Assembly (NCBI GenBank): GCA_003645455.1
Contig: QNFE01000004.1
Coordinates: 3,406-67,405, forward strand
Length of the DNA: 64,000 bases
Reading direction: 5' to 3'
DNA from: Gammaproteobacteria bacterium
Lineage (GTDB): Bacteria; Pseudomonadota; Gammaproteobacteria; QNFE01
In this document: positions 3,037 through 61,014 of the stretch, piece by piece
Position numbering within the stretch: position 1 is the stretch's first letter
How the letters are laid out: every line of letters starts with the position of its first letter
The notes under the pieces: generated by a model
What the model was told of the DNA's origin: nothing
The model's database searches: none
The model's input: the letters and a program-made list of their open reading frames with translations, nothing else
Translations under genes and position numbers: made by a program

Positions 3037-3109
3037 AAATTGATTGTTTAAATAATTTTTATCTGAAACTATTTTTCTTCCTATCTCTTTTTCTGTGTTC
3101 TCTCGTGCA

Positions 3110-3856: not shown

Positions 3857-3887
3857 TTTTTTATTTTCTATTTGTTAAAAGCATTAT

Positions 3888-4023: not shown

Positions 4024-4044
4024 ATTTTTGCCCCATTTTTATAG

Positions 4045-4623
4045 TTATAATTCTCCATTAAATGCTTGTTGCAAGATTGATTTTTGTAATTCTACTACAT
4101 TTTTTGTTTTTTGTTGATATATTTTTGTTAATTCTTGAGTTTGCTTTGATAATTTATCTAATTTTTTGACGATTTGTTGTTGTTCGGCAAGTGGCGGGAT
4201 TGGTATTTTTATTTGACCAATTTGATTTTTGTTGATTGAGTTAAATACGGCACCAGTGTTACCAATAATTTCTTTTTGGTGTTTTTTTAAAAAATAAAAA
4301 ATAAAATCTTTATCTACTGATTTTCTGACTCTGATTGAAGCTAAACCTCTGCCTATACATATTGTTTGGGTTGCAAAATTTACAGGTCCGACAGGTGCAC
4401 GAACAGACATCAAAATATCATTTATAATTGCTTTTTTGGTAATTTTTGTAGTCCATTTTGTAGGTTCGCCTATAAAATTTTTGGTAAATTCTTTTTTCCC
4501 TTGATAAAAAGGCATTCCATTTCCATCATTATTGTAGTATTTACTTTCAGGTGATTGTCCTGCAATTATCTCACAAATATCGCCGAGTTTTTTCTCTTGC
4601 CATTCGCCATTTTCAATTTTCAA
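4045..4623 (-). CDS. hsdS: Type I R-M specificity subunit HsdS, half-size (single target-recognition domain)
   Basis: It starts with the HsdS N-terminal motif (GEWQEKKLGDICEI). It has one TRD followed by the conserved HsdS helical block LPIPPLAEQQQIVKKLDKL..LQKSILQQAFNGEL. At 192 aa it is about half of a normal ~400 aa HsdS. The predicted start is TTG. Confidence 0.7.
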   Translation of the reverse strand: MKIENGEWQEKKLGDICEIIAGQSPESKYYNNDGNGMPFYQGKKEFTKNFIGEPTKWTTKITKKAIINDILMSVRAPVGPVNFATQTICIGRGLASIRVRKSVDKDFIFYFLKKHQKEIIGNTGAVFNSINKNQIGQIKIPIPPLAEQQQIVKKLDKLSKQTQELTKIYQQKTKNVVELQKSILQQAFNGEL

Positions 4624-4737
4624 TTTTCAATTCTCCATTGTTTTAAATGTTTTTTTATTTGCCAACCTTTTTTTAGTTGACGATTAGTTTTTGCATTTTC
4701 AATTTTCAACTCCGCCTCCGTTTGTTTTTAATTCGTT

Positions 4738-4873
4738 ATCATTGTGCCAATCGTAGGGGCGGATTCCATATCCGCCCGTTTATGGTGTTCCACATTCATC
4801 AATTTTTTAAAATCCGTATTATTGCGGGCGGATATGGAATCCGCCCCTACATTTAATTTATCGTCGTTGGATT
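4738..4873. repeat. REP/BIME-like palindromic doublet, copy 3
   Basis: Same ~136-bp unit as copy 2, lying between hsdM and hsdS. Confidence 0.8.
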
Positions 4874-6368: not shown

Positions 6369-6394
6369 CGGTCTGATATGGAATCAGCCCCTAC
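6369..6394. repeat. Half-unit of the REP-like element (degenerate)
   Basis: GGTCTGATATGGAATCAGCCCCTACA resembles the right arm of the REP unit. It lies between the hsdM start and the dnaE stop. Confidence 0.5.
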
Positions 6395-9400: not shown

Positions 9401-9894
9401 CATAAGTTATTCCAAAATTTAATTTCATTGTTTGCCTGTTCTATTTTGCCATTATGACATAAATTTGCAAATGGGTTTTGGTTGTTCGTCATAATGACAA
9501 TCAAGCCCTCTGCATTTGTTTGTAACCATGCTTTGGAGATTGTAATTTTTTTATCATAATGTGGTTTTTCAACCTGTCCTTTTTGATATGCCCACGATAC
9601 TAATTTAAAAAGATTTTTCAAACCTTTTTCATTTTGACAAAGAATGGTCAACTCATAATCGTCATCTTCACAGGCATCATTCAAACAACAAATATCAACT
9701 CCAATAATAGGTTTGATGCCATTTGCCATAGCTTCTTTATAAAATTTTATAAAAGCAAACATATTTGATAAATCAGTCATAGCAACTGCCATCATTTTAT
9801 TTTTTTTAGCATTTCGGACAAGGTCGGATACTCGGATAATGCTATCGTGGAGTGAGTATTCAGAGTGGACATTAAGATGAATAAAATTTTTCAT
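6409..9894 (-). CDS. dnaE: DNA polymerase III alpha subunit
   Basis: 1161 aa with a PHP-domain N-terminus MKNFIHLNVHSEYSLHDSI and a conserved polymerase core. Confidence 0.95.
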   Translation of the reverse strand: MKNFIHLNVHSEYSLHDSIIRVSDLVRNAKKNKMMAVAMTDLSNMFAFIKFYKEAMANGIKPIIGVDICCLNDACEDDDYELTILCQNEKGLKNLFKLVSWAYQKGQVEKPHYDKKITISKAWLQTNAEGLIVIMTNNQNPFANLCHNGKIEQANNEIKFWNNLCPQRFYLGISRIGETNEELYIKYNLMLCSQNDIPVVAINKVRFIIEDDYETHEVKVCIADGEYLDDGDRKTKYTEQQFFKNSKQMMELFRDIPEAIDNSVQIAYRCNVTIELGNTYLPDFPTKNNQNLDDFFLISTKNKLDKFLIKNKFTDEQKIPYIERLEIENKVIKEMGFAGYFLIVAEFIQWSKDNGIMVGPGRGSGAGSLAAYVLGITDVDPLKYDLLFERFLNPERVSLPDFDIDFCTQGRDEVISHVAKLYGENKVSQIITYGRMAAKGVVRDVGRVLKLPYFFCDRLAKLIPLDIGITLSSAMQQSEELSLRYKNEEDVRRVWDMALKLEGLARNASTHAGGVVIAPSALTDFTPLYCEDNGAKFITQLDKDDVEAIGLVKFDFLGLGNLTIIDKTIKIINTDKNDDEKIDISTIPTDDKAVFENILIKAKTIGVFQLESPGMKSLMQKLKPSVFEDIVALVALYRPGPLGAGMDVDFVNRKHGLSQIEYPHPSLENTLAPTYGTILYQEQVMQIAQILSGYSLGEADILRRAMGKKKKEEMASQRQIFITGAVKNNIDKNLASKIFDDMEKFAEYGFNKSHSVAYAMIAWQTAYLKFHYPAIFMAQVLTGDKGKTEKLAPIIKECNDMGLQIMPPDINQSIDDFYALDDNKIMYGLGAIKGVGSKAIGKLISDREQNGDYKNLDDFLVRNISFVMTKAVVEALIKTGCFDKYDDKRHILSNNMPSIIRAAEQEIKNQQSGQSDLFGGGRDNDNSTNEGQNKNAVRQNLKKWSKQKLLIEEKKFLDLYLSGHPFEQYAPILSNIMDGNIEEILNKNKTENITYSKKEQVIVAGFITKITKKSFKTGPIIFVTIDDKTALIELSVKGQTYDSFEVNYKKDQLLLCKCSLSVDKFRDTLRFSVEQIINIDDYLSKNINNIKITITDNDNLKINQLKQIINKYKGDKLISILYKTEQATLNLSLGGHYTINPKMEFFDKIQTLLGWNCITCH

Positions 9895-10478
9895 AGGTTT
9901 GTTAGAATATTTTTGACAGGTTTAAAAGTCTTGCGATGATGAGGACATACACCATATTTTTGTAATGTTAATAGATGATTTTTAGTAGGATAACCCTTGT
10001 GTTTATCAAAACCATATAACGGATATTGTCGATGAATATCCATCATCAAATTATCTCGGTGCACTTTGGCAATAATAGAGGCAGCACTTATCGCAGGCTC
10101 GGTTAAATCACCTTTGATAATTGCCACAGCTTGCATTTGCACCTCTGGGATATGAACCCCATCAACCAAAATTTTATGAGGCTGGATTGTTAGTTTTTCA
10201 ACAGCTATTTTCATCGCCATAAGACTTGCTTGTAAAATATTTATTTTATCTATAATTTTTTCATTTACAGCGGCAATGCTCCAACAAATGGATTTTTTTT
10301 TAATCTCTGTGGCAAGAAACTCTCGTTTTTTAGCGGATAATTTTTTAGAATCAGTCAACCCCATAATTTTATTTTTATAATCCAAAATAACAGCGGCAGC
10401 GACCACCGCACCTGCAAGCGGTCCGCGACCTGCCTCATCCACTCCTGCGATAATAAAATTTGAATTTAAGCTGGACAT
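9891..10478 (-). CDS. rnhB: Ribonuclease HII
   Basis: AGVDEAGRGPLAGAVVAAAVIL motif at the expected size. Confidence 0.9.
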   Translation of the reverse strand: MSSLNSNFIIAGVDEAGRGPLAGAVVAAAVILDYKNKIMGLTDSKKLSAKKREFLATEIKKKSICWSIAAVNEKIIDKINILQASLMAMKIAVEKLTIQPHKILVDGVHIPEVQMQAVAIIKGDLTEPAISAASIIAKVHRDNLMMDIHRQYPLYGFDKHKGYPTKNHLLTLQKYGVCPHHRKTFKPVKNILTNL

Positions 10479-11396
10479 TTAAAATTTAAAATGCTGTGGC
10501 AGATCGGCTACAAAATTATATTTTTTACTGATTATAATTTGGCTTGAATGTAAGTATAAATTATTTTTTTGCTCGTTTTCAAAGTTTTTATTATATTTAT
10601 CATCCCCTATGATGGGGTGTTTAAAGTGGGATAAATGCAGACGAATTTGGTGGGTTCTACCGGTTTCAATTCTAATTTTTAAGAGACTTGTATTATTGTT
10701 GATATATTGACAATTTAAAATATGGGTAATCGCTTGTTTGCCTTTGGGGTTGATTTGCATAAATTTCTCACCATTTCGCAGATTTTTTTTATCCATGGCT
10801 TTGTCAATTTTAATAATTTTTTTATCCCATAAACCTGCCACACGAGCATAATAAATTTTTTCAATTTTACGAGATTTAATTAGAGTCTGAATCTTTTTTA
10901 AAAAATGATAATTTTTTGCTATCAATAACACCCCGGTTGTTTTTTTATCCAAACGATGAATTAACTCATAATCATTATTGATACCAGATTTGATTGCCTC
11001 AATAATCCCCCATTTTATATTGCTACCGCCGTGGACACTAATATTAGCAGGTTTGTTTAAAACCAAAATATCGTCATCCTCAAAGATTATAGATTTTTTT
11101 ATTAAATCTACCATCGCAGAGGGGGCTTTTTTGGTAGCTGTATCGGTCATTCTAACAGGTGGTATCCGCACCATATCGCCTGTTTTAATTTTATAAAGTG
11201 GTTTACATCTTTTGGAATTTACTCGCACCTGTCCGGTCCTGATTATTTTATAAATCAAGGATTTAGGAGCAGGTTTCAAAAAATTTAATAAAAAATTATC
11301 TAACCTTTGTCCTGCCTGCTTGTTATAAACTTCAATATTTTTAACTGATGAATTTGTCATTATTGTATTTAATTTTTTTAAAACAATATTATACAT
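10479..11396 (-). CDS. RluA-family 23S rRNA pseudouridine synthase (RluC/RluD-like, with N-terminal S4 domain)
   Basis: The catalytic motif HRLDKKTTGVLLIAKN is present. The S4-like N-terminus is (QRLDNFL..IRTGQVRVN). Confidence 0.8.
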   Translation of the reverse strand: MYNIVLKKLNTIMTNSSVKNIEVYNKQAGQRLDNFLLNFLKPAPKSLIYKIIRTGQVRVNSKRCKPLYKIKTGDMVRIPPVRMTDTATKKAPSAMVDLIKKSIIFEDDDILVLNKPANISVHGGSNIKWGIIEAIKSGINNDYELIHRLDKKTTGVLLIAKNYHFLKKIQTLIKSRKIEKIYYARVAGLWDKKIIKIDKAMDKKNLRNGEKFMQINPKGKQAITHILNCQYINNNTSLLKIRIETGRTHQIRLHLSHFKHPIIGDDKYNKNFENEQKNNLYLHSSQIIISKKYNFVADLPQHFKF

Positions 11397-12067: not shown

Positions 12068-12223
12068 TTGTTTTTAAATTTTAAAAAGGCTATTATGATT
12101 GATAAAAAACCCACTAACATTAACCAAATTTTAGACATAATATTCCTCATCAATAATTTTTAAAATAAAACCTCTTCGCTGGGTTATCTTGTAACAAAAT
12201 AAAAGAAAAGAATAAAATATATT

Positions 12224-12255
12224 GAGGCCTTTGCATAAAACCTGAAAAGGTCTCA
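12224..12255. repeat. Miniature (32 bp) derivative of MITE family 1 (TIR-TIR hairpin TGAGGCCTTTGCAT...TGAAAAGGTCTCA)
   Basis: Both ends match the family-1 terminal inverted repeat. It is flanked by ATATAT on both sides. Confidence 0.5.
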
Positions 12256-15335: not shown

Positions 15336-15642
15336 ACTGCAAACTTTTCTTGATATACCCATAAATAGATATATATAATTGTTTGTTTATCTACTTTGCA
15401 CTTGATAAATAAAAAATAATAAAGTATAATTCGCAAATTATTATAATTATGAAACCTTTGTTTTAAAAAGTTACATTGTTACATATGTTTTATAAACTGT
15501 GCTTAAACATACAAAGATTTCACGATAAATTATAAAAAACAAATTTAATATTTTAATAAAGTTGTTCATTTTTTTTATAAAATTTTTTAAAAATGAGCAA
15601 CATTATTAGTATATTTATCTTATCATAAATGAGGACATAAAA

Positions 15643-19680: not shown

Positions 19681-20409
19681 ATGACATTTATCATAGCGGG
19701 ATTCTATTATATAGCTTTTATTATTTTTGTGGGCGGAGTGCTCTTAAAAATCAAACAATACTGGACTACTCCTGCTCCTATTAAAATTCCTACTACCCCC
19801 GCACCGACAACTCGTTTGGGTGTTTTATATCGGATGGGAAAAGAGATTATCGTATTTGAGAGTCTTTTCAAATCCAACAAATGGATTTGGATTTTTGGTT
19901 GGCTTTTTCACTTTGGGATGTTCGCTGTTTTATTTCGTCATTTAAGATATTTTCTTGATCCTGTGCCTGTTATCGTAGTTATGATGCAACCGCTTAAATA
20001 TGCAGCTTTTGCGATGTTAATTGGTTTATCAGGTTTATTATTTCGGCGAATTTTTGTCGCAAGAATTAGATATATTAGCGACCCCTCAGATATTTTAATG
20101 TTAATTCTTATGTTAGGAATTGGCATAAGTGGCACTATGATGACATTTTTTGGTAATGTTGATATTGTTGCTACCAAATCATTTTTTATTGGAATTTTAA
20201 CCTTTAATTTTCAGCCATTTCCCACCCACCCTATGTTACTTATTCATTTAATTTTGGTGGCTGTTTTAATGTTGATTTTTCCATTTAGCAAACTTTTGCA
20301 TGCCCCTGGAATTTTCTTTTCACCTACCCGTAATCAGGTTGATAATGCTCGAGAAAAAAGACATATCGCCCCGTGGGCTGCCAAATTAGACAAAACGAGG
20401 AGTGTGTAA
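19681..20409 (+). CDS. dsrM: DsrM (NarI-like di-heme b membrane protein)
   Basis: 242 aa polytopic membrane protein at the DsrM position. Confidence 0.8.
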   Translation: MTFIIAGFYYIAFIIFVGGVLLKIKQYWTTPAPIKIPTTPAPTTRLGVLYRMGKEIIVFESLFKSNKWIWIFGWLFHFGMFAVLFRHLRYFLDPVPVIVVMMQPLKYAAFAMLIGLSGLLFRRIFVARIRYISDPSDILMLILMLGIGISGTMMTFFGNVDIVATKSFFIGILTFNFQPFPTHPMLLIHLILVAVLMLIFPFSKLLHAPGIFFSPTRNQVDNAREKRHIAPWAAKLDKTRSV

Positions 20410-21940
20410 AATGGCAGATTTTGACATCCCAGCTTATCGCACTATAAAAATAATCCCCAAACCAGTTGAGGGGACTATGGCACATGTTAAACCATACTTT
20501 GCCAAACCAGAACACCAAGAGGCATTAGGATTTCCAGGAGAAAAACCTGAAAATTGGAAACAAATTGCGATTGATAAATTAGGAGAGATTGTCAAAAAAT
20601 ATAAATCCGTGGCTTTGTTTATGGATATATGTGTCAAATGTGGCTCATGCACGGATAAGTGTCATTATTATATCGGCACCTCTGATGCTAAAAATATGCC
20701 AGTTGCTCGTCAAGACTTATTACGCAAGGTATATCGGCGATATTTTACCTTTGCAGGTAAATATTTTCCATGGTTGGTCGGAGCCGTTGATTTAACCGAA
20801 GAGATAATTGATGAATGGTATGTATATTATCATCAATGTTCTCAATGTCGCCGCTGCTCTGTTTTTTGCCCTTATGGCATAGATACTGCCGAGATATCAA
20901 TGGCTGCCAGAGAAATTTTAGATGCCATCGGTATCGGACAAAAATATTGTAATGAAATTCTCGGTAAGGCACAAAAAATTGGTAATAATTTAGGTTTGCC
21001 AGGTCCTGCTTTGGAAAATACTCTGGAGGGATTAGAAGAAGATATAGAAGATGAAACCGGAGTTGTCGTTAAAATGCCTCTTGATGTCAAGGGTGCTGAT
21101 ATTCTATTAGTGACTCCATCTGCTGATTTTTTTGCCGAACCGCATATTGACGGTTTAATAGGTTATGCTAAGGTTTTTCATGCCGCAGGGGCAAGCTGGA
21201 CTATGAGCACCTATGCATCGGAGGCGGGAAACTTTGGAATGTTCATCGGCAATTATGCCAATACCCAAAAACTAACAATGAGAATCCGCAAAGCAGCCCT
21301 TGATTTAGGGGTTAAAAGATTAGTTTTTGGTGAGTGCGGACATGCTTGGCGAGTTGCTTATAGTTTTATGAATACGATGGCAGGTCCATTTGACTTTTTA
21401 GACCCAAAATATCCGGTGCCAGAGCATATTTGCGAATATACTAATAACTTAATAGAGGCAGGAAAACTAAACTTAGACCCATCATTAAATGATGATATGG
21501 TTTTAACTTTTCATGACTCTTGTAATATCGCTCGTGGTTCTCGGATGGGTAAAAAAGCAGGCGGACAATTTGAGATACCGCGTGCTGTTATCAAAGCTGT
21601 ATGTAATAATTATGTTGATATGCCACATGATACCATCAAAGAGGTAACTTTTTGTTGTGGTGGAGGTGGCGGTTTATTGACAGATGATATCATGGAAGTG
21701 CGTGTCAAAGGCGCTTTGCCGAGAATGGAGGCATTAGATGAGGTAACACGTGAACATGGAGTCACTCATATGGCAGCCATTTGTGCTATATGCAAAAGTC
21801 AGTTCACCAAAGTAATTCCATACTATGGTTTTTCCATGGATCAAATTGTCAGCATCCATCAATTGGTAAGCAATGCAATTATCTTAGACGGACAACAAAC
21901 AGAATCAACAACAGAACCTGATAAAAAATCAGCGGATTGA
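20402..21940 (+). CDS. dsrK: DsrK (HdrD-like Fe-S/CCG-domain catalytic subunit)
   Basis: 512 aa with CxxCxxC ferredoxin motifs and C-terminal CCG-type cysteine repeats. Its start overlaps dsrM. Confidence 0.85.
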   Translation: MCKMADFDIPAYRTIKIIPKPVEGTMAHVKPYFAKPEHQEALGFPGEKPENWKQIAIDKLGEIVKKYKSVALFMDICVKCGSCTDKCHYYIGTSDAKNMPVARQDLLRKVYRRYFTFAGKYFPWLVGAVDLTEEIIDEWYVYYHQCSQCRRCSVFCPYGIDTAEISMAAREILDAIGIGQKYCNEILGKAQKIGNNLGLPGPALENTLEGLEEDIEDETGVVVKMPLDVKGADILLVTPSADFFAEPHIDGLIGYAKVFHAAGASWTMSTYASEAGNFGMFIGNYANTQKLTMRIRKAALDLGVKRLVFGECGHAWRVAYSFMNTMAGPFDFLDPKYPVPEHICEYTNNLIEAGKLNLDPSLNDDMVLTFHDSCNIARGSRMGKKAGGQFEIPRAVIKAVCNNYVDMPHDTIKEVTFCCGGGGGLLTDDIMEVRVKGALPRMEALDEVTREHGVTHMAAICAICKSQFTKVIPYYGFSMDQIVSIHQLVSNAIILDGQQTESTTEPDKKSAD

Positions 21941-21978: not shown

Positions 21979-23958
21979 ATGGCAGTAGAATTAAAAATAA
22001 CAGACAACAAAATAACCTATCTTCGTTTTCGTGATGGTGACAGCAAGTATAAGAGTTATTCAAACAAATATTTGAATGAAGATAAATCATACAAATGTCC
22101 TACATATGTGCACAAAACTCCACCTTGTCAAGGATCATGTCCATCTGGCCATGATGTTCGTGGCTGGCTTGATATAGTGCGTGGGATTGAAAAACCAACC
22201 GGTGATAAAAGTTGGCAAGAATATGCTTTTATGAGAATGACCAAAGCTAATCCATTTCCATCTATTATGGGGCGTGTATGTCCTGCTCCTTGTGAGAGCG
22301 GTTGCAATAGAAATGAGATAGAAGATAAAGTCGGTATCAATTCAGTGGAACAATTTATCGGTGACTATGCTAACGAACATAATTTTCAATTTGCAAAACC
22401 TGCCAATAAAACAGACAAAAAAGTAGCCATTATAGGTGGCGGTCCAGGAGGGCTGGCAGCGGCATACCAGTTAGCAAAATTAGGCCATAACATAACAATT
22501 TTTGAAGAATTGGAAAAGCTTGGCGGTATGATGCTCTATGGTATTCCAGGTTATAGAGTGCCAAGAAAATCGTTAGAGACCGAAATAAACAGAATTTTAT
22601 CACTTGGCATTGAGGTTAAAACTAATACTCGTGTTGGCCAAGATATAAGTCTGGATGATTTAGAAAAAAATTATGATGCAGTCGTGTGGGCGATTGGCAC
22701 CCATAAATCTCGCAACCTACCAGTTGATGGTTTTGATAAAGCTACAAACTGTTTGGGTGGTGTTGAGTTTTTACGAGCCTTTAATGAGGGCAAATTACAA
22801 AGTTCTGCTAAAAAAGTTGTTGTTGTTGGTGGTGGTGATACCTCAATTGATGTCGCCTCCGTCTCTCGCAGGATAGGTTATGTAGAAGGTAGTGCACCTG
22901 CCGAAGATGTATTATCAGGTAAAGCTGTCCATAATGTTGCTAAAGATTCAAAAAGAGAGGACTCAGATGTCACTTTGACCTCACTTTTCCCACTTGAAAA
23001 TATGACAGCCGCAGAACATGAAATTAACGATGCTATACGAGAGGGCATAGATATAAAAGCAGGAGTTATGCCATTGAAAATGATAATTGATAATAACGGT
23101 CGTGCTACGGCAATGAAGTTATGTAAATGCACAATGGATGGCGAGCGTCCCATTAAAACAGAAGGCACGGAATTTGAAATCAAAGCAGATTTATTTGTTG
23201 CTGCCATAGGTCAAGCAGGAGACATGACAGGCTTAGAGAGCATAGATAATGGTAAGAGCTTTATTGATGCGGATAATTTTTATCAAGTAAAAGATAAACA
23301 GGGGCATTTCGTTTGTGGTGATATTGTTCGTCCGCATCTTTTAACAACTGCAATCGGGCAAGCATCAATTGTCTCAGATGGTGTGCACTCTTATTTATCA
23401 GGAGAAGATATAGGAAAAAGACCAAAGGTTGATGTTCATCATTTTAGTTTGTTAGAAAAATTAAAAGAACACAACTTATATCCAGAAGACTTTGTCGGTA
23501 ATCAAGAGGATACGGACGCTAAAAATGATACTGAATTTAATGGTCATCGTGGCACAGATACTGCAAAATATGCTGTGCATAACTACGAAAATCGCTCTAA
23601 ACACGAAATTGTAGAACACGAAGAACTGTTTTTAGGGCATTTTGCCTATGAGCCAAGGAACAAAAGAGACTCCAAAGAAATCGGGGCAGATGAAGTCTTA
23701 GGCAACTTTGAAGAGAGATTAATTTGTTTGAATGAGGAGACAACCCAAAAGGAGGCGGGTAGATGTATGAGTTGTGGGATGTGTTTTGAATGTGATAATT
23801 GTGTAATTTTTTGTCCGCAAGATGCTATTTTTAGAGTTAAAAAAGATAGCAAAACCACTGGTCGTTATGTCGATACTGATTATAATAAATGTATTGGTTG
23901 TCATATCTGTGCTGATGTATGTCCGACAGGTTATATTGAAATGGCAATGGGGCATTAA
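21979..23958 (+). CDS. dsrL: DsrL (NAD(P)H:acceptor oxidoreductase, GltD-like, with C-terminal ferredoxin domain)
   Basis: 659 aa with FAD/NAD binding GGGPGG, a GltD-like core and a C-terminal 2x[4Fe-4S] motif. Confidence 0.85.
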   Translation: MAVELKITDNKITYLRFRDGDSKYKSYSNKYLNEDKSYKCPTYVHKTPPCQGSCPSGHDVRGWLDIVRGIEKPTGDKSWQEYAFMRMTKANPFPSIMGRVCPAPCESGCNRNEIEDKVGINSVEQFIGDYANEHNFQFAKPANKTDKKVAIIGGGPGGLAAAYQLAKLGHNITIFEELEKLGGMMLYGIPGYRVPRKSLETEINRILSLGIEVKTNTRVGQDISLDDLEKNYDAVVWAIGTHKSRNLPVDGFDKATNCLGGVEFLRAFNEGKLQSSAKKVVVVGGGDTSIDVASVSRRIGYVEGSAPAEDVLSGKAVHNVAKDSKREDSDVTLTSLFPLENMTAAEHEINDAIREGIDIKAGVMPLKMIIDNNGRATAMKLCKCTMDGERPIKTEGTEFEIKADLFVAAIGQAGDMTGLESIDNGKSFIDADNFYQVKDKQGHFVCGDIVRPHLLTTAIGQASIVSDGVHSYLSGEDIGKRPKVDVHHFSLLEKLKEHNLYPEDFVGNQEDTDAKNDTEFNGHRGTDTAKYAVHNYENRSKHEIVEHEELFLGHFAYEPRNKRDSKEIGADEVLGNFEERLICLNEETTQKEAGRCMSCGMCFECDNCVIFCPQDAIFRVKKDSKTTGRYVDTDYNKCIGCHICADVCPTGYIEMAMGH

Positions 23959-23961
23959 TAG

Positions 23962-24330
23962 ATGAAAAATTGGCTACTTTTAATGAGTTTTTTTGTATCG
24001 TTTGCAATTCATGCAGATGATAACAATTCATACTTGCCAAAAGCAAAAGCCGGCACAAAATGTGTGGAAGACCGACAAATTATGCGAACCAATCATATGG
24101 ATTTAATCTTACATCAACGAGATAAAACTATGCGAGATGGCAAAAGAGACGGCAGACACTCTTTAAAAGAGTGTATAAATTGCCATGTAACAAAAAATGA
24201 TAAGAATGAATATCCAAATATTGACTCATCACAACATTTTTGTAACTCTTGTCATACCTATGTTGCTGTTAAAACTGATTGTTTTTCTTGCCACCGTTCT
24301 ATCCCTGAAAACAAACAGGTAAAAAAATGA
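23962..24330 (+). CDS. dsrJ: DsrJ (periplasmic tri-heme cytochrome c)
   Basis: Signal peptide plus three CxxCH motifs (CINCH, CNSCH, CFSCH). Confidence 0.85.
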   Translation: MKNWLLLMSFFVSFAIHADDNNSYLPKAKAGTKCVEDRQIMRTNHMDLILHQRDKTMRDGKRDGRHSLKECINCHVTKNDKNEYPNIDSSQHFCNSCHTYVAVKTDCFSCHRSIPENKQVKK

Positions 24331-25046
24331 ATAAATTAAACCGCCGAGAATTTATCAAAAAAACTACAAATACTGCTGCCATAAGTATTTTACCTGGTGT
24401 TTTTTTGCAAACGGTAAATGCTAAAGGTGCTGATGTTAAAAATCGTTGGGGGATGTTGATTGATACTCGTGGATGTGGTGACTGTAAAAATGAGTGCATA
24501 ACAGCCTGTCATAGCGAACATGCGGTAAAAAGCTTTGATCGCCCCCAAACAGACAGCCAATGGATAAGAAAAGTTACAGTTAAAAACAGAAAAACTTCCC
24601 ACACAATGGCGTTACCTATAATGTGTCAACATTGTGAAAAACCTGCTTGTGTTGATGTTTGTCCTACTGGTGCATCATTCAAACGTGTCGACGGCATAGT
24701 TTTGGTTGACCGGCATATTTGTATCGGTTGTCGTTACTGTATGATGGCATGCCCTTATAAAGCTCGTAATTTTGTTCATGAGAATCTTAGTGAACAAAAT
24801 ACCATATCTCCTCGTGGCAAAGGCACAGTGGAGGCTTGCACGATGTGTGTTCACAGAATAGACAAAGATGGAGCAAAAGCTAAAACTGCTTGTCAACAAG
24901 CATGCCCTAAAAATTCTATAATTTTTGGTGATTTAAATGATAAAAATAGTGGTATATCAAAAAAATTAAAAGCAATGGGTGCCAGACAAATTAGAGCAGA
25001 TTTAAACCTAAATCCTGCTGTATTATATCAAGGGTTGGACTTATGA
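24327..25046 (+). CDS. dsrO: DsrO (Tat-exported 4Fe-4S ferredoxin-like subunit)
   Basis: Twin-arginine-like NRREFIKK leader and multiple Cx2Cx2Cx3CP motifs. Its stop codon is supplied by the first 3 nt of a mini-MITE. Confidence 0.85.
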   Translation: MNKLNRREFIKKTTNTAAISILPGVFLQTVNAKGADVKNRWGMLIDTRGCGDCKNECITACHSEHAVKSFDRPQTDSQWIRKVTVKNRKTSHTMALPIMCQHCEKPACVDVCPTGASFKRVDGIVLVDRHICIGCRYCMMACPYKARNFVHENLSEQNTISPRGKGTVEACTMCVHRIDKDGAKAKTACQQACPKNSIIFGDLNDKNSGISKKLKAMGARQIRADLNLNPAVLYQGLDL

Positions 25047-25114
25047 AACCTTTGCATAATTCAATCACAATTTATAACAACAATAAAATGCACCTGAAAT
25101 ATGAAAAGGTCTCA
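25044..25114. repeat. Internally deleted (71 bp) copy of MITE family 1 exactly filling the dsrO-dsrP intergenic space
   Basis: TGAAACCTTTGCATAATTCAATCACAATTTATAACAA...AAATGCAC...TGAAAAGGTCTCA. The termini match the family-1 TIRs and the interior matches the full copies (CACAATTTATAAAACAAATA, AAATGCAC). It is flanked by TTA/TTA. Confidence 0.6.
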
Positions 25115-25116
25115 TT

Positions 25117-26331
25117 ATGAAAAAACAAACATCATTTAGTCAATTTTCTAATAATAGTTTTTTTTACTGGTCTTTGTTAGTTTTATTCGGTGGCATAATT
25201 TTGATAGGTTTGCTCGCAGTGCATCAAATGGAACATCACGGACATCATATCACAGGGATGAGTCAACAAATAGTCTGGGGTTTGCCTCATGTTTTTGCTA
25301 TATTTTTAATTGTCGCAGCCTCGGGTGCTTTAAATATCTCATCTATGTCATCGGTATTTAATCGAACTCATTATAAACCTCTATCTCGTTTGAGTGCCAT
25401 GTTATCAATTTGCCTGCTCGCAGGTGGTTTGGCAGTTTTAGTGCTTGATTTGGGTCGTCCCGATCGGCTAATTGTTGCGATGACTCATTATAATTTTAAA
25501 TCAATTTTTGCTTGGAATATAATTTTATATAACGGTTTTTTTGCTATTGTTTTTGTTTATATTTGGATGATGATGGAACAAAAAATGAATAAGTTTAGCA
25601 AATTAGCGGGCTTTTTTGCTTTTCTTTGGCGTCTGATATTAACCACAGGAACCGGCTCAATTTTTGGCTTTTTGTTTGCCAGAGAGGCATATGATGCGGC
25701 TATTATGGGGCCGATGTTTGTTATAATGTCTTTCTCGTTTGGTTTGGCATTTTTTATGTTGGTGATGGGATTGTTATATAAATTAGACGGCAGGCAAATT
25801 GGCGATTATGTTTTTAATAAACTTCGCAAATTACTGGGTGTATTTATCGCTGCTGTGCTTTATTTTGTCATCGTTAAACATTTGACAAATCTATATGCCG
25901 CCGAACACACAGATATGGAATATTTTATGCTTTTTGGTGACAACATCTACACTCAACTTTTTTGGTATGGGCAGGTGTTATTAGGTGGTTTATTGCCACT
26001 GATTATGCTCTATGGTCCGCTGTGTAAAAAATCTCGTTTGACAGGGTATTTGGCTGCTTTTCTGGTTGTATTAGGTGGCCTGATTCAGATTTATGTAATT
26101 GTTATCGGTGGACAAGCCTATCCTTTGGTGCTGTTCCCTGGGATGGAAGTTACCAGTTCCTTTTTTGACGGAACTATCAACTCATATATACCATCAAAAT
26201 ATGAAATTGCTCTGGGGGTTTCAGGTGTTGCTATCACTTTATTAGCCATAGTTTTTGCCAGTCGCATTTTACCAGTGGCAGCCGACAACCTATCAGATGA
26301 GTATGTTAATCCACACTTTAAGAAAAAATAA
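25117..26331 (+). CDS. dsrP: DsrP (NrfD/PsrC-like integral membrane quinone-interacting subunit)
   Basis: 404 aa with ~10 TM segments, last gene of the dsrMKJOP module. Confidence 0.85.
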   Translation: MKKQTSFSQFSNNSFFYWSLLVLFGGIILIGLLAVHQMEHHGHHITGMSQQIVWGLPHVFAIFLIVAASGALNISSMSSVFNRTHYKPLSRLSAMLSICLLAGGLAVLVLDLGRPDRLIVAMTHYNFKSIFAWNIILYNGFFAIVFVYIWMMMEQKMNKFSKLAGFFAFLWRLILTTGTGSIFGFLFAREAYDAAIMGPMFVIMSFSFGLAFFMLVMGLLYKLDGRQIGDYVFNKLRKLLGVFIAAVLYFVIVKHLTNLYAAEHTDMEYFMLFGDNIYTQLFWYGQVLLGGLLPLIMLYGPLCKKSRLTGYLAAFLVVLGGLIQIYVIVIGGQAYPLVLFPGMEVTSSFFDGTINSYIPSKYEIALGVSGVAITLLAIVFASRILPVAADNLSDEYVNPHFKKK

Positions 26332-26374
26332 ATGACATTAACTGCTTGAATCCTATGTATTTTAGTTTCATCTG

Positions 26375-26431
26375 TCATGCTGAACCACCTACTCCGTCAT
26401 GCTAAACCACCTACTCCGTCATGCTGAACTT
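26375..26431. repeat. Tandem 22-mer array (GTCATGCTGAACCACCTACTCC x2.5)
   Basis: Direct contiguous copies, one with a single substitution. Confidence 0.8.
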
Positions 26432-26489: not shown

Positions 26490-26590
26490 AAGCACGGAAT
26501 GACGAGAAAGAACAAAGCACGGAATGACGAGAAAGAACAAAGCACGGAATGACGAGAAAGAACAAAGCACGGAATAATGAGAGTGAGAGG
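26490..26590. repeat. Tandem 25-mer array (AAGCACGGAATGACGAGAAAGAACA x3 + diverged partial copy)
   Basis: Three perfect contiguous copies then AAGCACGGAATAATGAGAGTGAGAGG. Between the two arrays lies a unique segment related to the left dsr-flank repeat. Confidence 0.8.
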
Positions 26591-31210: not shown

Positions 31211-31371
31211 TGAGACCTTTGCATAATTCAAGCACAATTTATAAAACAAATAGATTGCATATGCTTATAGCAAAAATTCGTCAAAGGGCTTGCCATATTC
31301 CTCATTTTTGTTATAAAAATGCACTATTTTTTGCATTCTCTAAACAGCACTTGAATTATGCAAAGGTCTCA
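31211..31371. repeat. MITE family 1, full-length copy (161 bp; TIR TGAGACCTTTGCATAATTCAAGCAC)
   Basis: Terminal inverted repeats of ~24 bp. The internal sequence is ~90% identical to the copy at 60853..61014 in the same orientation and to 50901..51062 in inverted orientation. Confidence 0.85.
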
Positions 31372-36769: not shown

Positions 36770-36875
36770 GCCAAAAATTCAAAAAAACGACACTTGGACA
36801 CTTGATTTATACAAAGGTATCTTGATATTTTAAAATTAGACTATATAATATTTTTTTATTTTAGAGAAAATTATT

Positions 36876-50900: not shown

Positions 50901-51062
50901 TGAGACCTTTGTATAAATCAAGTGCTGTTTAAAGAGGACAGAAAATAGTGCATTTTTATAGCAAAAATGAGGAATATGGTAATTCCCTTTGACGAATTTT
51001 TGCTATGAAAAGGTGCATTTTGTGTATTTTATAAATTGTGCTTGATTTATACAAAGATCTCA
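50901..51062. repeat. MITE family 1, full-length copy (162 bp), inverted internal orientation
   Basis: TGAGACCTTTGTATAAATCAAGTGC...GTGCTTGATTTATACAAAGATCTCA. It is flanked by ATTA/ATTA and ends 1 nt from the lon stop codon. Confidence 0.85.
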
Positions 51063-51063
51063 A

Positions 51064-53412
51064 TTAAACCAAAGCAATTTTAAAAACCTCTTCAATCCAC
51101 AACACGGGTTTTATTGTTATTTTTTGTAAAATAGTGACAGGAATTTCTTTTAAATCTTTTTCGTTTTCGGATGGAATAATAACTGTTTTGATGCCACCAC
51201 GATGGGCTGCGAGCAATTTTTCTTTTAAACCTCCGATAGGCAGAACTTCTCCTCGTAGAGTTATCTCGCCTGTCATAGCAACCGATGCTTTGACTTTTTT
51301 ATTTGCCAAAACTGATGCTAATGCTGTGCACATACCAACCCCTGCACTTGGCCCATCTTTGGGTGTGGCTCCCTCTGGCACATGAATATGAATATCTGTT
51401 TTTTTGTAATAGTCTTTTTTTAGTTTTAAATCATTATGTCTGTTGCGGACCACACTCATGGCAGTCTCAATAGATTCTTTCATAACGTCTCCCAGTGATC
51501 CAGTATATTTTATCTTACCATCACCTGCAAATGCCGCCGCCTCAATTGTAAGCAACTCACCACCTACTTGGGTCCATGCGAGCCCTGTAACTTGTCCTAT
51601 TTGGTTTTGTCTCGTAGCTTTACCATAGTTAAATTTATAGACTCCCAAATATTGTTCTAAATCATTAGGAGTTATCATAGTTTTAACTTCTTTTTTGTCA
51701 TCATCAGGGGCAAGGGCTATTTTTGTGACTACCTTGCGACAAACCTTAGCAATTTCTCTCTCTAAACCTCTTACTCCTGATTCACGAGTATATGTGCGGA
51801 CAATCTCTAAGATGGCAGATTTTGTAAAAAATATATCTTTTCTATCTAAGCCATTATTTTTTATTTGTTTAGGAATAAGGTATTTTTGGGCGATATTCGT
51901 TTTTTCATCCTCTGTGTAACCTGATATTTTTATAATCTCCATCCTGTCTAATAATGGCGGTGGAATATCAAGACTATTTGCTGTTGCCACAAACATTACA
52001 TCAGATAAATCATAATCAATCTCTAAATAATGATCGCCAAATGTGTTGTTTTGTTCTGGATCCAATACTTCTAACAAAGCTGAGCTAGGATCTCCTCTGA
52101 AATCTGTTGACATTTTGTCAATTTCATCCAATAAAAATAATGGATTGCTATTTTTAATTTTTGACAGATTAGTGATGATTTTGCCAGGCATTGATCCTAT
52201 GTAAGTTCTTCTATGTCCTCTGATTTGCGCCTCATCACGCACACCGCCGAGCGACATTCGGATGAATTTGCGCTTTGTGGCACGAGCGATTGAACGGGCA
52301 ATAGAAGTTTTGCCGACACCAGGTGGACCGACCAGACATAAAATAGGTCCTTTTAATTTTGCTACCTTGTTTTGCACAGCAAGATGTTCGGTGATTCTTG
52401 TTTTTACCTCATTCAATCCATAGTGATCTTTTTCTAATATGTTTTGTGCTTTGTTAAGGGTTTTTTCTAATCTGCTTTTTTTATCCCATGGCAGATCAAA
52501 AATAACATCAAGATAATTACGAATGACAGTCGCCTCGGAGCTCATAAGGTGCATTTTTTTGAGTTTTTTAAATTCTTTTTGACACTTTTCTTTGGCCTCG
52601 GAACTCATTTTAATTTTGGTAATTTTGCTTTCTATCTCTTTTAATTCTTCTTCATCATCGGCATCGTCATCTTTGTTGATCTCTTTTTTGAGGACTTTTA
52701 TTTGTTCGTTGACATAGTATTCTTTTTGGTTTTTGTCCATTTGTTTGCGAACTTTTGAATGAATTTTTTGTTCAATTTGCAAAACTTCCAATTCTTTTTC
52801 AAGATATTTTAAAATAATCTCCATTCTTGAGTCCAATTCAACGGTTTCTAAAATAGTTTGTTTGTCTGTTAGTTTTAATTTGATATGAGCCGATACCACA
52901 TCACACATAGCACCATAATTTGTCGTGTTTAGAACAGAGGATAAAATATCAGTGGGAATTTTACGATTGATTCTAACATATTGTTCAAAAACAGACAAAA
53001 CAGAACGAGACAATGCCTCAGATACTTTGTTATAACGATGTTTTTTGTCATATAGTGTTATATAATCTGCGACAAAATTTTGTGAATTATTTCTGATTTC
53101 AGTGGATACAGCACGATGCCTGCCCTCTATTAAAACCTTAATGGTGTTGTCAGGTAGTTTTACTAATTGTAAAATATTAGCAACTGTGCCGACCTTATAG
53201 AGATCTTTTAATTTGGGACTATTGGTTTTTGATGTTTTTTGGGTAGATAAAAAAATATTTTGATGGTTTTTGGTAGCAATATTTATAGCATTGATTGATT
53301 TTTTTCTGCCAATAAAAAGAGGAACCACCATCCCAGGGAATACCACCAAATCTCGCAAGGGCAATAAAGGAATAGTTTCTATTTTATGAATATCGTCTGT
53401 TGCAGTTGCCAT
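51064..53412 (-). CDS. lon: ATP-dependent Lon protease
   Basis: N-terminal LON domain, AAA+ Walker A GPPGVGKTS, and C-terminal protease PKDGPSAG; 782 aa. Confidence 0.95.
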   Translation of the reverse strand: MATATDDIHKIETIPLLPLRDLVVFPGMVVPLFIGRKKSINAINIATKNHQNIFLSTQKTSKTNSPKLKDLYKVGTVANILQLVKLPDNTIKVLIEGRHRAVSTEIRNNSQNFVADYITLYDKKHRYNKVSEALSRSVLSVFEQYVRINRKIPTDILSSVLNTTNYGAMCDVVSAHIKLKLTDKQTILETVELDSRMEIILKYLEKELEVLQIEQKIHSKVRKQMDKNQKEYYVNEQIKVLKKEINKDDDADDEEELKEIESKITKIKMSSEAKEKCQKEFKKLKKMHLMSSEATVIRNYLDVIFDLPWDKKSRLEKTLNKAQNILEKDHYGLNEVKTRITEHLAVQNKVAKLKGPILCLVGPPGVGKTSIARSIARATKRKFIRMSLGGVRDEAQIRGHRRTYIGSMPGKIITNLSKIKNSNPLFLLDEIDKMSTDFRGDPSSALLEVLDPEQNNTFGDHYLEIDYDLSDVMFVATANSLDIPPPLLDRMEIIKISGYTEDEKTNIAQKYLIPKQIKNNGLDRKDIFFTKSAILEIVRTYTRESGVRGLEREIAKVCRKVVTKIALAPDDDKKEVKTMITPNDLEQYLGVYKFNYGKATRQNQIGQVTGLAWTQVGGELLTIEAAAFAGDGKIKYTGSLGDVMKESIETAMSVVRNRHNDLKLKKDYYKKTDIHIHVPEGATPKDGPSAGVGMCTALASVLANKKVKASVAMTGEITLRGEVLPIGGLKEKLLAAHRGGIKTVIIPSENEKDLKEIPVTILQKITIKPVLWIEEVFKIALV

Positions 53413-60852: not shown

Positions 60853-61014
60853 TGAGACCTTTGCATAAATCAAGCACAATTTATAAAACAAATAGATTGC
60901 ATATGCTCATAGTAAAAATTCGTCAAAGGGAATTACCATATTCCTCATTTTTGCTATAAAAATGCACTATTTTCTGTCCTCTCTAAACAGCACTTGATTT
61001 ATGCAAAGGTCTCA
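60853..61014. repeat. MITE family 1, full-length copy (162 bp)
   Basis: TGAGACCTTTGCATAAATCAAGCAC...GTGCTTGATTTATGCAAAGGTCTCA. It begins 2 nt after the wbpD-like stop. Confidence 0.85.

What the first reader, a model, noticed from the sequence alone, without database searches (positions are those of the whole stretch)
25044..25114. Miniature MITE copy forms the entire dsrO-dsrP intergenic region, supplying dsrO's stop codon and abutting dsrP's start
The 71-bp element begins with TGA, which is the dsrO stop codon (25044..25046), and ends 2 nt before the dsrP ATG (25117). Its right TIR, AAAAGGTCTCA, therefore occupies the dsrP ribosome-binding region. An inserted hairpin between two genes of the DsrMKJOP membrane complex could modulate dsrP translation or differentially stabilise mRNA. 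It also shows the element can insert without disrupting an essential energy-metabolism operon.
Basis: seen in the sequence. Interest (0 to 1): 0.6.

Follow-up and report, generated by a model that had tools for sequence, protein, structure and literature searches.

The report
MITE inserted in dsrO–dsrP stop/start overlap
A 71-base non-coding mobile element landed exactly in the four-base ATGA overlap between two sulfur-oxidation genes, rebuilding the first gene's stop codon, the second gene's start codon and a ribosome-binding site, and the same family does this at four more gene pairs in the same genome.

Summary
dsrO (24327..25046) ends on the TGA at 25044-46 and dsrP starts at 25117. The 71 nt between them is a degenerate, internally deleted copy of a real MITE family, with 7 copies or fragments in the window and at least 65 complete copies in the same MAG.

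It is an insertion, not an ancestral spacer. The closest relative has an ATGA overlap (gcgTTATGAagaat), and 86 related loci mostly have gaps of -4 to +8 nt and no such element.

Refinement: the element proper is GAGACC…GGTCTC with a 5-bp target duplication. This was shown by a near-isogenic empty site for another copy. The stop is therefore T (duplicated host base) plus GA (element tip), and the start is AT (duplicate) plus host G. The right repeat puts AAAGG 7 nt before the ATG, replacing the original AAGGG.

New: five copies in this genome sit in exactly this register inside stop/start overlaps (dsrO/P, trpE/G, methylase/nuclease, zipA/purM, rhodanese/rsmE). About 0.12 were expected (p≈1e-7).

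Inferred: the hairpin hides the ribosome-binding site until a ribosome terminates on the upstream stop, giving structure-based translational coupling. The SUP05 attribution is unsupported. This is a new variant of a known kind.

The parts
24327..25046 (+). dsrO (239 aa). Its stop codon TGA at 25044-25046 is built from the last base of the left target duplication (T25044) and the first two bases of the element (GA).
   Evidence: ORF list. NCBIfam DsrO NF045797, 286 bits against a cut-off of 200, full-length match.
25030..25034 (+). AAGGG inside the dsrO 3' end. This is the inferred original Shine-Dalgarno of dsrP, 8 nt before the ATG in the reconstructed empty site and now displaced 74 nt upstream.
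   Evidence: Sequence. The homologous AAGGA lies at the same distance in the closest relative L082. CAGGG/CAAGG in the conserved YQG codons is seen across relatives.
25040..25044 (+). Left copy of the 5-bp target-site duplication (CTTAT).
   Evidence: Family-wide 5-bp duplication: 37 of 63 copies perfect against a 2% control. Proven by the empty site L160 against the filled site L125.
25045..25113 (+). MITE core, 69 nt (GAAACC…GGTCTC). It is a deletion derivative of the 97-100 nt subfamily.
   Evidence: nhmmer E=1.4e-6. Alignment to L150/L115/L112 copies shows a 27-28 nt deletion next to a short GCAC repeat.
25044..25064 (+). Left inverted-repeat arm (TGAAACCTTTGCATAATTCAA). It pairs with the right arm, and its bases 6-10 (CCTTT) pair with the SD-like AAAGG.
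   Evidence: MFE and centroid structures.
25094..25114 (+). Right inverted-repeat arm (TGAAATATGAAAAGGTCTCA region). It carries 4 substitutions relative to the family consensus GCACTTGAATTATGCAAAGGTCTCA.
   Evidence: Alignment A2. Hairpin -14.2 kcal/mol against -33 to -37 for the five other 72-73 nt copies.
25105..25109 (+). AAAGG, a Shine-Dalgarno-like motif supplied by the right repeat, 7 nt upstream of the dsrP ATG.
   Evidence: Sequence. P(unpaired) is 0.10 in free mRNA and 0.43 with a ribosome placed on the dsrO stop. AAGG/AGGAG-type motifs at 5-10 nt are used by other dsr genes in the window.
25114..25118 (+). Right copy of the target-site duplication (ATTAT). Its last two bases plus host G25119 form the dsrP start codon.
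25117..26331 (+). dsrP (404 aa, NrfD-type membrane subunit). Its N-terminus MKKQTSFS is homologous from codon 1 to that of L082 (MKNTTSFS).
25088..25120 (+). 10-codon mini-ORF (MHLKYEKVSL) inside the element. Its TGA overlaps the dsrP ATG as ATGA. It has no SD of its own and is probably incidental.
   Evidence: Read directly from the sequence. Not tested further.
12223..12255 (+). 33-nt ultra-miniature copy (TGAGGCCTTTGCATAAAACCTGAAAAGGTCTCA). It shares the derived CCTGAAA…AAAAGG right arm with the dsrO-dsrP copy.
15450..15522 (-). 73-nt degenerate copy of the family.
   Evidence: nhmmer hit and sequence.
31211..31371 (+). Full-length 161-nt copy.
36799..36821 (+). Solo right-end fragment of the family.
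50901..51062 (-). Full-length 162-nt copy, ending 1 nt from the stop codon of lon (51064..53412, minus strand).
60853..61014 (+). Full-length 162-nt copy.

Best explanation
A non-autonomous DNA transposon (MITE) transposed into the ATGA stop/start overlap of dsrO and dsrP. Its termini are GAGACC…GGTCTC and it makes a 5-bp target duplication.

The duplicated target ended in …TTAT and the element begins with GA. As a result:
- The left junction reads T+GA, so the dsrO stop is in the same place.
- The right junction reads AT+G, so the dsrP start is in the same place.
- Both proteins are unchanged. These three points are shown.

The insertion moved the original Shine-Dalgarno (AAGGG in the dsrO 3' end) 74 nt away. 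It put the AAAGG of the right inverted repeat at almost the same distance from the ATG (7 nt against 8 nt). This too is shown.

Termination-reinitiation coupling needs an overlap or a gap of a few nucleotides, so the 70-nt spacer should have abolished it. This is inferred from published work.

dsrP is now most likely initiated at the repeat-borne AAAGG. In free mRNA this motif is paired with CCUUU, which lies immediately after the dsrO stop. A ribosome terminating on that stop covers the left arm and frees the site, so dsrP translation stays coupled to dsrO translation by structure unmasking. This step is computed and inferred, not measured.

This copy is old and its hairpin is much weakened, so the coupling or barrier here is mild. 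Four intact copies sit in the same register at other gene pairs of the same genome, and there the predicted effect is large.
For: Gene identities.

Family membership.

Empty site in the closest relative:
- L082 reads …gcgTTATGAagaat, with dsrO at 8839-9558 and dsrP at 9555-10772.
- Removing the element plus one duplicate from the window gives …gacTTATGAaaaaa.
- The DsrP N-termini are then homologous from codon 1.

Junctions in relatives:
- 86 related junctions are mostly -4 to +8 nt.
- There are no family termini in 615 kb of relatives.

Target duplication:
- A 3-bp duplication is perfect in 41 of 64 copies against a 5% control. A 5-bp duplication is perfect in 37 of 63 against 2%.
- A near-isogenic empty site (L160) has a single ATTAT inside an ATGA overlap. 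L125 has ATTAT[GAGACC…GGTCTC]ATTAT.

Recurrence:
- 10 copies have an ORF of at least 80 codons ending exactly on the terminal TGA.
- 5 copies also have the downstream gene starting 2 nt after the element.
- All of these partners are real genes by Pfam and belong to one MAG accession series.
- A target-motif-weighted null expects 0.12 such copies of 64. Five were observed, p≈1.4e-7.

RNA folding:
- The SD is 90% paired in free mRNA.
- The RBS opening cost is 9.1 kcal/mol free and 5.3 with a ribosome on the stop.
- The reconstructed empty site costs 5.9. An intact 72- or 98-nt copy at the same site would cost 22.7.
- The other four junction copies cost 18-27 free and 7-8.5 with a ribosome on the stop.

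Published basis: gaps of about 20 nt almost abolish termination-reinitiation coupling (PMC10666635).
Against: - No expression data exist. Use of AAAGG as the SD and hairpin-mediated coupling rest on thermodynamic predictions only. The z-score of the local fold is modest (-2.1).
- The closest relative showing the dsrO-dsrP empty site is only 69% identical in DsrO, so the insertion cannot be dated. The first base of the two duplicates differs (C against A).
- The hairpin-weakening substitutions in the right arm are shared with the 33-nt copy at 12223-12255. At least some therefore predate this insertion and are not adaptations at this site.
- No autonomous transposase with these ends was found in 666 kb.
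- The enrichment at overlaps depends on my crude estimate of tolerated non-coding space.
Confidence: 0.7

Rival explanations
1. Neutral passenger. The insertion happened as described but has no regulatory consequence. The weakened hairpin is irrelevant, dsrP is initiated independently at AAAGG or the A-rich leader, and the recurrence at ATGA overlaps reflects only survivorship, because these are among the few sites where the element is harmless.
For: - This copy's hairpin is weak (-14.2 kcal/mol).
- Its RBS opening cost (9.1) is only about 3 kcal/mol above the reconstructed empty site (5.9).
- The proteins are unchanged.
- About half of the window's genes lack a clear SD.
Against: - The four intact junction copies sequester the RBS by 18-27 kcal/mol. 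That would be strongly deleterious for trpG or purM without some unmasking mechanism.
- Enrichment is about 40-fold over a target-motif null.
- Junction copies fold more weakly than size-matched peers (p=0.002), and all five share one orientation.
Confidence: 0.25
2. mRNA processing or stability element. The transcribed hairpin is a substrate for RNase III or RNase E, as reported for Correia/nemis and ERIC elements. It would uncouple the stability of the dsrMKLJO and dsrP segments and so change subunit ratios.
For: - By analogy, ERICs are co-transcribed with their flanking genes and affect transcript stability through a ribosome-exposed RNase E site.
- Correia hairpins have also been studied at the RNA level (PMC2229807).
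- The element forms a long imperfect duplex.
Against: - No RNase site can be identified from sequence.
- The duplex in this copy is interrupted by four mismatches in 21 pairs, which makes it a poor RNase III substrate.
- There is no terminator-like or promoter-like signal in the element and no Rfam family above threshold.
Confidence: 0.1
3. Ancestral spacer. The 70-nt sequence is the original dsrO-dsrP intergenic region, and the MITE family's ends were captured from it or resemble it by chance.
For: A few distant lineages do have long dsrO-dsrP spacers of 64-240 nt.
Against: - The closest relatives have an ATGA overlap or a 1-nt gap.
- The element aligns along its full length with a family of at least 65 copies.
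- It is flanked by a duplication.
- Excision restores the relative's junction exactly.
- The long spacers in other lineages are unrelated sequences.
Confidence: 0.02
4. Assembly artefact. A repeat-induced misjoin put a MITE between dsrO and dsrP.
For: - Many contigs of this metagenome break inside MITE copies.
- The Logan contigs break within this copy, and their 25-nt overlap is shared with other copies.
Against: - Each junction is covered separately by an independent assembly.
- The two halves carry the copy-specific substitutions.
- The matching TTAT duplicates on both sides, and the exact restoration of ATGA, are not expected from a misjoin.
Confidence: 0.03

Closest known systems
Bacterial MITEs in intercistronic positions: ERIC/IRU of Yersinia and Correia/nemis elements of Neisseria
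   Same: - Small, non-coding, TIR-bounded and multi-copy, with target duplications.
- Co-located with genes so that they are transcribed as hairpins.
- Reported to alter the expression of flanking genes through ribosome-dependent RNA conformational change or RNase cleavage (PMC2229807; PMC3184786).
   Different: - There is no sequence relationship.
- The duplication is 5 bp and ANNNT-biased, where Correia elements duplicate TA (from my own knowledge).
- This element sits inside stop/start overlaps and rebuilds stop, start and SD, and it does so recurrently. I found no report of this for those families.
MIRUs (mycobacterial interspersed repetitive units)
   Same: They are repeats located between genes of polycistronic operons, and their ends overlap the adjacent genes' termini (Supply et al. 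1997, as summarised in PMC3184786). This is the closest precedent for a repeat occupying a stop/start junction.
   Different: - MIRUs carry short ORFs that bridge the two genes, and they occur as tandem units.
- This element is a single hairpin-forming MITE.
- Its only internal ORF (25088-25120) does not start at the dsrO stop.
- Coupling here would work by structure unmasking, not by a relay ORF.
Translational coupling by termination-reinitiation at ATGA overlaps, and coupling by unmasking of a structured RBS (classical examples: RNA-phage coat/replicase and several E. coli operons; from my own knowledge)
   Same: - The pre-insertion state is the standard -4 overlap, which is enriched in heteromeric complexes (PMC10666635).
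- In the post-insertion geometry the stop codon is the first 3 nt of the arm that pairs with the SD. That is the arrangement required for unmasking-type coupling.
   Different: The masking structure is delivered ready-made by a mobile element rather than evolved in place. Nothing here has been tested experimentally.
Mobile insertion cassettes (TIR-bounded, transposase-less elements with passenger genes; from my own knowledge)
   Same: One family member, L132:314-1629, has the same ends and an AAA duplication. It carries a RhuM-family gene and no transposase.
   Different: This is a single instance. It may be a MITE split by an inserted gene rather than a mobile cassette.

Membership tests
MITE (miniature inverted-repeat transposable element) | Terminal inverted repeats | tested here: met
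   The family consensus is TGAGACCTTTGCATAA(A/T)TCAAG at both ends. In this copy, 17 of the first 21 terminal pairs are retained.
MITE (miniature inverted-repeat transposable element) | Target-site duplication flanking each copy | tested here: met
   The 5-bp duplication is perfect in 37 of 63 copies (control 2%), and 11 more have one mismatch. This copy has CTTAT/ATTAT. The empty (L160) against filled (L125) comparison shows a single ATTAT against a duplicated ATTAT.
MITE (miniature inverted-repeat transposable element) | Small, no transposase, many copies in one genome | tested here: met
   Copies are 33-185 nt. There are 7 copies or fragments in the 64-kb window and 65 distinct complete copies in about 666 kb of one MAG or metagenome. 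No ORF exceeds 10 codons in this copy.
MITE (miniature inverted-repeat transposable element) | Evidence of insertion (empty site in a relative) | tested here: met
   For dsrO-dsrP, L082 has the ATGA overlap. For MTase/nuclease, L160 has the empty site with about 95% identical flanks.
MITE (miniature inverted-repeat transposable element) | Autonomous partner IS with the same ends | tested here: inconclusive
   Only one TIR pair lies 400-5000 bp apart, and it carries RhuM cargo, not a transposase. There are no multi-copy ORFs in 666 kb and no transposase domain in the ORFs checked. The rest of the genome could not be searched.
Specific IS family of origin (for example IS3, IS5 or Tn3-derived) | Transposase homology and a family-typical combination of ends and duplication | not testable with these tools
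   Only the ends (GAGACC…) and the 5-bp ANNNT-biased duplication are known, with target consensus T|ANNNT|A. No ISfinder-type library is available, so no assignment is made.
Intrinsic terminator / REP-type extragenic palindrome | GC-rich stem followed by a U-run (terminator), or a short GC-rich palindrome without TIR and duplication (REP) | tested here: not met
   No terminator-like site lies in 25044-25116. The stem is AT-rich with no T-run after it, and the element has TIRs and a target duplication.
Any Rfam RNA family | Score above the gathering threshold | tested here: not met
   There are only sub-threshold hits to eukaryotic miRNA hairpin models (26 bits against 79, and 24 against 65).
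   The best DsrO in one genome per GTDB species is 60% identical. The best among 5.8 billion proteins other than itself is 69%. NCBI names the source only as 'MAG: Gammaproteobacteria bacterium'.

The most novel reading that the evidence does not exclude
This MITE family acts as a portable intercistronic cassette that preferentially lands in, or is selectively kept in, ATGA-type stop/start overlaps. Three features make this work:
- The GA tip plus the duplicated T always regenerates a stop codon.
- The duplicate plus the host G regenerates the start codon.
- The inverted repeat supplies an SD at 7 nt, and pairing of that SD with the bases just after the stop makes downstream initiation conditional on upstream termination.

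The element would then convert termination-reinitiation coupling into structure-gated coupling. It could retune subunit ratios in operons such as dsrMKJOP and trpEG without changing any protein.
Probability: 0.3. Interest if true: 0.75.

Novelty: new variant of a known kind. Interest (0 to 1): 0.55.

Why it matters
MITEs between co-transcribed bacterial genes are known. An element whose ends let it insert inside a four-base gene overlap without changing either protein, and which does so at five gene pairs in one genome, is a cleaner and more specific case than those I could find described.

It gives a natural experiment on translational coupling. The same genome holds 51 untouched ATGA-type (NTGA) overlaps in the sampled 666 kb and five that were converted into 70-190 nt hairpin spacers. 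The converted pairs include subunits of heteromeric enzymes (DsrO/DsrP, TrpE/TrpG).

It also warns annotators that a repeat can supply a gene's stop codon and ribosome-binding site.

For the dsr operon itself the consequence is probably small, because this copy's hairpin has decayed.

Tried and rejected
- **Relatives scan (genome contigs, DsrO query).** It was useful for the junction survey but gave no close empty site. The close relatives came from the protein search and contig look-ups instead.
- **Autonomous element.**
  - TIR pairs 400-5000 bp apart gave only a RhuM-carrying unit.
  - An all-against-all comparison of 474 ORFs found no multi-copy ORF apart from two unrelated pairs.
  - Ten window ORFs scanned with Pfam were housekeeping or R-M genes.
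- **Rfam and terminator/promoter scans of the junction.** Nothing meaningful was found.
- **3-bp against 5-bp duplication.** I first read it as 3 bp with T…A as part of the repeat. I revised to 5 bp for two reasons:
  - Copies with other terminal bases co-vary with the flank, for example TATGA|…|TATGA.
  - The L160 empty site shows 5 bp directly.
- **Weakened hairpin as local adaptation.** I could not accept that the substitutions are adaptations at the dsr junction, because the 33-nt copy at 12223 shares them.
- **Relay mini-ORF (25088-25120).** I judged it incidental because it has no SD and does not begin at the dsrO stop.
- **MAFFT three-way alignment of the junction.** It placed the gap ambiguously because the duplication repeats TTATGAA, so I aligned this by hand.
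- **Literature searches.**
  - Searches for MITE plus translational coupling or ATGA overlaps found no direct precedent.
  - A search for the metagenome identifier found nothing.
- **Window against the 69 metagenome loci.** There is no overlap outside MITE copies. A shared origin was inferred from GC content and the consecutive NCBI accession series.
Full report
**1. The observation**

The window (33.8% G+C) carries a dsr cluster. NCBIfam identifies the ORFs 19681-20409, 20402-21940, 23962-24330, 24327-25046 and 25117-26331 as DsrM, DsrK, DsrJ, DsrO and a DsrP/NrfD-type subunit. A DsrL-like NAD(P)-binding protein lies at 21979-23958.

dsrO ends with TGA at 25044-25046 and dsrP begins with ATG at 25117. 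The 71 nt from 25044 to 25114 read TGAAACCTTTGCATAATTCAATCACAATTTATAACAACAATAAAATGCACCTGAAATATGAAAAGGTCTCA.

**2. It belongs to a real repeat family**

- The terminal 11-mer occurs 8 times in the window against 1.5 expected.
- Three full-length copies lie at 31211-31371, 50901-51062 (inverted) and 60853-61014, and are 161-162 nt long.
- An HMM built from these three finds the dsr copy at E=1.4e-6.
- The same search finds a 73-nt degenerate copy at 15450-15522 and an end fragment at 36799-36821.
- A 33-nt ultra-miniature copy lies at 12223-12255.

An exact-pattern scan of the metagenome collection with the 22-nt terminus returned 69 loci. Of these, 68 come from one JGI metagenome, Ga0164315. 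The loci contain 65 distinct complete elements in discrete size classes: 161-162 nt (40 copies), 184-185 nt (6), 96-100 nt (8) and 72-73 nt (5).

The loci have the window's G+C content. Their proteins carry NCBI accessions in the same series as the window's DsrO: RLA08661 for DsrO, RLA08286 for TrpG, RLA06892 for PurM and RLA08878 for the methylase. All are named 'MAG: … [Gammaproteobacteria bacterium]'. I therefore infer that they are other contigs of the window's own genome.

The dsr copy aligns end to end with the 97-100 nt subfamily, its closest match being L150:1668-1765. The exception is a 27-28 nt internal deletion next to a short GCAC repeat. It also has four substitutions in the right arm and one (G4A) in the left terminus.

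**3. It is an insertion, and the pre-insertion state was an ATGA overlap**

The nearest DsrO other than itself among 5.8 billion proteins is 69% identical. On that contig (L082) dsrO is at 8839-9558 and dsrP at 9555-10772. The junction reads caaggattagcgTTATGAagaatacaacatcc.

The window reads caagggttggacTTA[TGAAACC…GGTCTCA]TTATGaaaaaacaaacatca. Removing the element and one copy of the flanking repeat gives gacTTATGAaaaaac. That is the same ATGA overlap, and the DsrP N-termini are then homologous from the first codon (MKKQTSFS against MKNTTSFS).

The next relatives (67% identity, six contigs) have a 1-nt gap. Across 86 related loci the gap is mostly -4 to +8 nt. None of these 615 kb contains the family's terminus, apart from the window's own Logan contig.

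Two Logan contigs of run SRR6478866 independently cover each junction.

**4. Transposition anatomy**

With ends defined as TGAGACC…GGTCTCA, 41 of 64 copies have a perfect 3-bp duplication, against a 5% control. Two observations show that the true duplication is 5 bp:

- Copies whose terminal bases are not T…A co-vary with the flank, for example TATGA|GAGACC…GGTCTC|TATGA.
- With ends defined as GAGACC…GGTCTC, 37 of 63 copies have a perfect 5-bp duplication (control 2%), and 11 more have one mismatch.

The target consensus is T|ANNNT|A.

A near-isogenic empty site settles the point. An 808-kb ENA contig (L160) carries a methylase of at least 90% identity and reads …AAGGATTT-ATTAT-GATAAAAGG. L125 reads …AAGGATTT-ATTAT[GAGACC…GGTCTC]ATTAT-GATTGAGGG. 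That empty site is again an ATGA overlap.

For the dsr copy the duplicates are CTTAT (25040-44) and ATTAT (25114-18), and the core is 25045-25113. Strictly, then, the dsrO stop is the host T plus the element's GA. The dsrP start is the duplicated AT plus the host G.

**5. The configuration is recurrent**

Ten elements have an open frame of at least 80 codons that ends exactly on the terminal TGA. Where the original stop was TAA, the T is the last duplicated base and the element turns it into TGA (L104, L137).

Five elements also have a long ORF starting exactly 2 nt after the other end. Pfam confirms that all the partners are real genes:

| Copy | Upstream gene | Downstream gene |
|---|---|---|
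| window 25044 | dsrO | dsrP |
| L109:7489 | trpE | trpG |
| L125:2145 | N6/N4 methylase | PD-(D/E)XK nuclease |
| L147:6624 | zipA-like | purM |
| L092:7186 | rhodanese | rsmE-like (TTGA overlap) |

In the sampled 666 kb there are 51 intact NTGA overlaps and about 150 kb of non-coding positions. I built a position-weight model of the target from the other insertions. It assigns 0.18% of insertion propensity to such overlaps, so 0.12 of 64 insertions are expected there. Five were observed (binomial p≈1.4e-7).

The non-coding denominator is crude. Even so, a five-fold smaller tolerated space leaves the excess clear.

All five junction copies have the same internal orientation relative to transcription, while stop-only copies are mixed. 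This is weak evidence, 1 in 16.

**6. Consequences for translation**

The original SD-like AAGGG (25030-34, in the conserved YQG codons) lay 8 nt before the ATG. L082 has AAGGA at the same place. After insertion it is 74 nt further away, and the AAAGG of the right repeat lies 7 nt before the ATG. The other dsr genes in the window use AGGAG/AAGG-type motifs at 5-10 nt.

Published reporter work shows that intergenic distances of about 20 nt almost abolish termination-reinitiation coupling (PMC10666635). The ancestral coupling mode should therefore be lost.

Folding of 24985-25175 pairs the left arm (UGAAACCUUUGCAUAA…) with the right arm. The computed results are:

| Situation | RBS (-14..+13) opening cost, kcal/mol |
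|---|---|
| Present copy, free mRNA (AAAGG 90% paired) | 9.1 |
| Present copy, 30-nt ribosome footprint on the dsrO stop | 5.3 |
| Reconstructed empty site | 5.9 |
| Intact 72- or 98-nt copy at this site | 22.7 |
| Four intact junction copies, free | 18-27 |
| Four intact junction copies, ribosome on upstream stop | 7-8.5 |

The geometry explains this. The stop codon is bases 1-3 of the arm whose bases 6-10 pair with the SD. A terminating ribosome therefore necessarily unmasks the downstream site.

Junction copies also fold more weakly than size-matched copies elsewhere (ranks 1/6, 4/40, 1/6, 3/6 and 2/8; permutation p=0.002). The dsr copy's hairpin is -14.2 kcal/mol against -33 to -37 for the other 72-73-nt copies.

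There is a caveat. The 33-nt copy at 12223 shares the derived right-arm changes. Some of the weakening therefore predates the dsr insertion.

**7. What is shown and what is inferred**

Shown:
- family membership;
- insertion into an ATGA overlap;
- the 5-bp duplication;
- unchanged DsrO and DsrP;
- replacement of the SD position by the repeat's AAAGG;
- recurrence of the same architecture.

Inferred:
- loss of termination-reinitiation;
- use of AAAGG for initiation;
- hairpin-gated coupling;
- any selective value.

Not found:
- a transposase partner;
- a terminator or promoter in the element;
- any Rfam family.

**8. Comparison with known systems**

The element meets the defining features of a bacterial MITE, except that no autonomous partner was found.

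Functionally, the closest precedents are ERIC elements in Yersinia operons and Correia/nemis elements. These are co-transcribed hairpins that affect flanking gene expression (PMC2229807). MIRUs, whose ends overlap the adjacent genes in a polycistron, are the other precedent (PMC3184786).

I found no report of a MITE that recurrently occupies ATGA overlaps while regenerating stop, start and SD. The library is limited to open-access texts.

**9. Verdict**

The specific dsr copy is an old, decayed and probably near-neutral insertion. The interest lies in the family-level pattern it led to. I rate it a new variant of a known kind, with interest 0.55.

Noticed in passing
L077:3713-3955 (Sideroxydans MAG, CAYOJU010000061.1): An unrelated TIR-bounded element of about 243 nt fills the dsrO-dsrP spacer in a distant betaproteobacterial lineage. 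Its arms are 26 nt and 88% complementary, and the fold is -115 kcal/mol. The left arm contains dsrO's TAA stop, and the right arm ends 2 nt before the dsrP ATG. Other Sideroxydans loci have a 2-nt gap. This is an independent MITE-like hit at the same junction.
   Followed up: partly
L045 (about 3768-3875), L034, L049, L040, L067: Other lineages have unusually long dsrO-dsrP spacers of 64-176 nt. In L045 the spacer is about four tandem copies of AAAACATAGCTTC(A/G)AT. The origin of the others was not examined.
   Followed up: no
L132:314-1629: A 1.3-kb unit is bounded by the same MITE ends with an AAA/AAA flank. It carries a RhuM-family gene (Pfam 336 bits) and a 92-aa ORF but no transposase. 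It is either a mobile-insertion-cassette-like relative or a MITE split by a gene.
   Followed up: partly
L099:654-814 and L154:422-582: Two 161-nt copies from different metagenome samples share one flank (ttgagtgcaa) but differ on the other. Both lack matching duplications. This suggests recombination between MITE copies, or a chimeric assembly across the repeat.
   Followed up: no
window 2940-4846 and 6370-6390: A second, unrelated repeat is a GC-rich palindrome GGGCGGATATGGAATCCGCCC in 7 copies (0 expected). Six of the copies form three inverted pairs inside three 141-nt direct repeats spaced 967 and 850 nt apart. These lie within a type I restriction-modification locus (hsdR, hsdS fragment, hsdM, Bro-N ORF). 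It may be an hsdS shuffling or phase-variation module.
   Followed up: partly
window 26374-26429 and 26490-26582: Two tandem arrays lie just downstream of dsrP. One has 2.5 copies of a 22-nt unit (GTCATGCTGAACCACCTACTCC) and the other 3.7 copies of a 25-nt unit (AAGCACGGAATGACGAGAAAGAACA). The Logan contig L159 ends inside the first array.
   Followed up: no
window 50901-51062 / 51064-53412: The full-length MITE copy ends 1 nt from the stop codon of lon (minus strand). This is another case of the family abutting a gene end.
   Followed up: partly
window 25088-25120: A 10-codon ORF inside the element (MHLKYEKVSL) ends with a TGA that overlaps the dsrP ATG as ATGA. This is a leftover of the duplicated junction. 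There is no SD upstream.
   Followed up: no
L125:1365-2144 and cluster members: The methylase next to one junction MITE has relatives of at least 90% identity in MAGs named Methylococcales sponge symbionts and 'uncultured Candidatus Thioglobus sp.'. This R-M module therefore appears to be horizontally mobile among marine gammaproteobacteria. In L160 the downstream nuclease ORF is only 42 aa.
   Followed up: no
L090-L158 contig ends: Many Ga0164315 contigs terminate about 100-124 nt from a MITE terminus. The family is therefore a major cause of assembly breaks in this genome, and the count of 65 copies is a lower bound.
   Followed up: no
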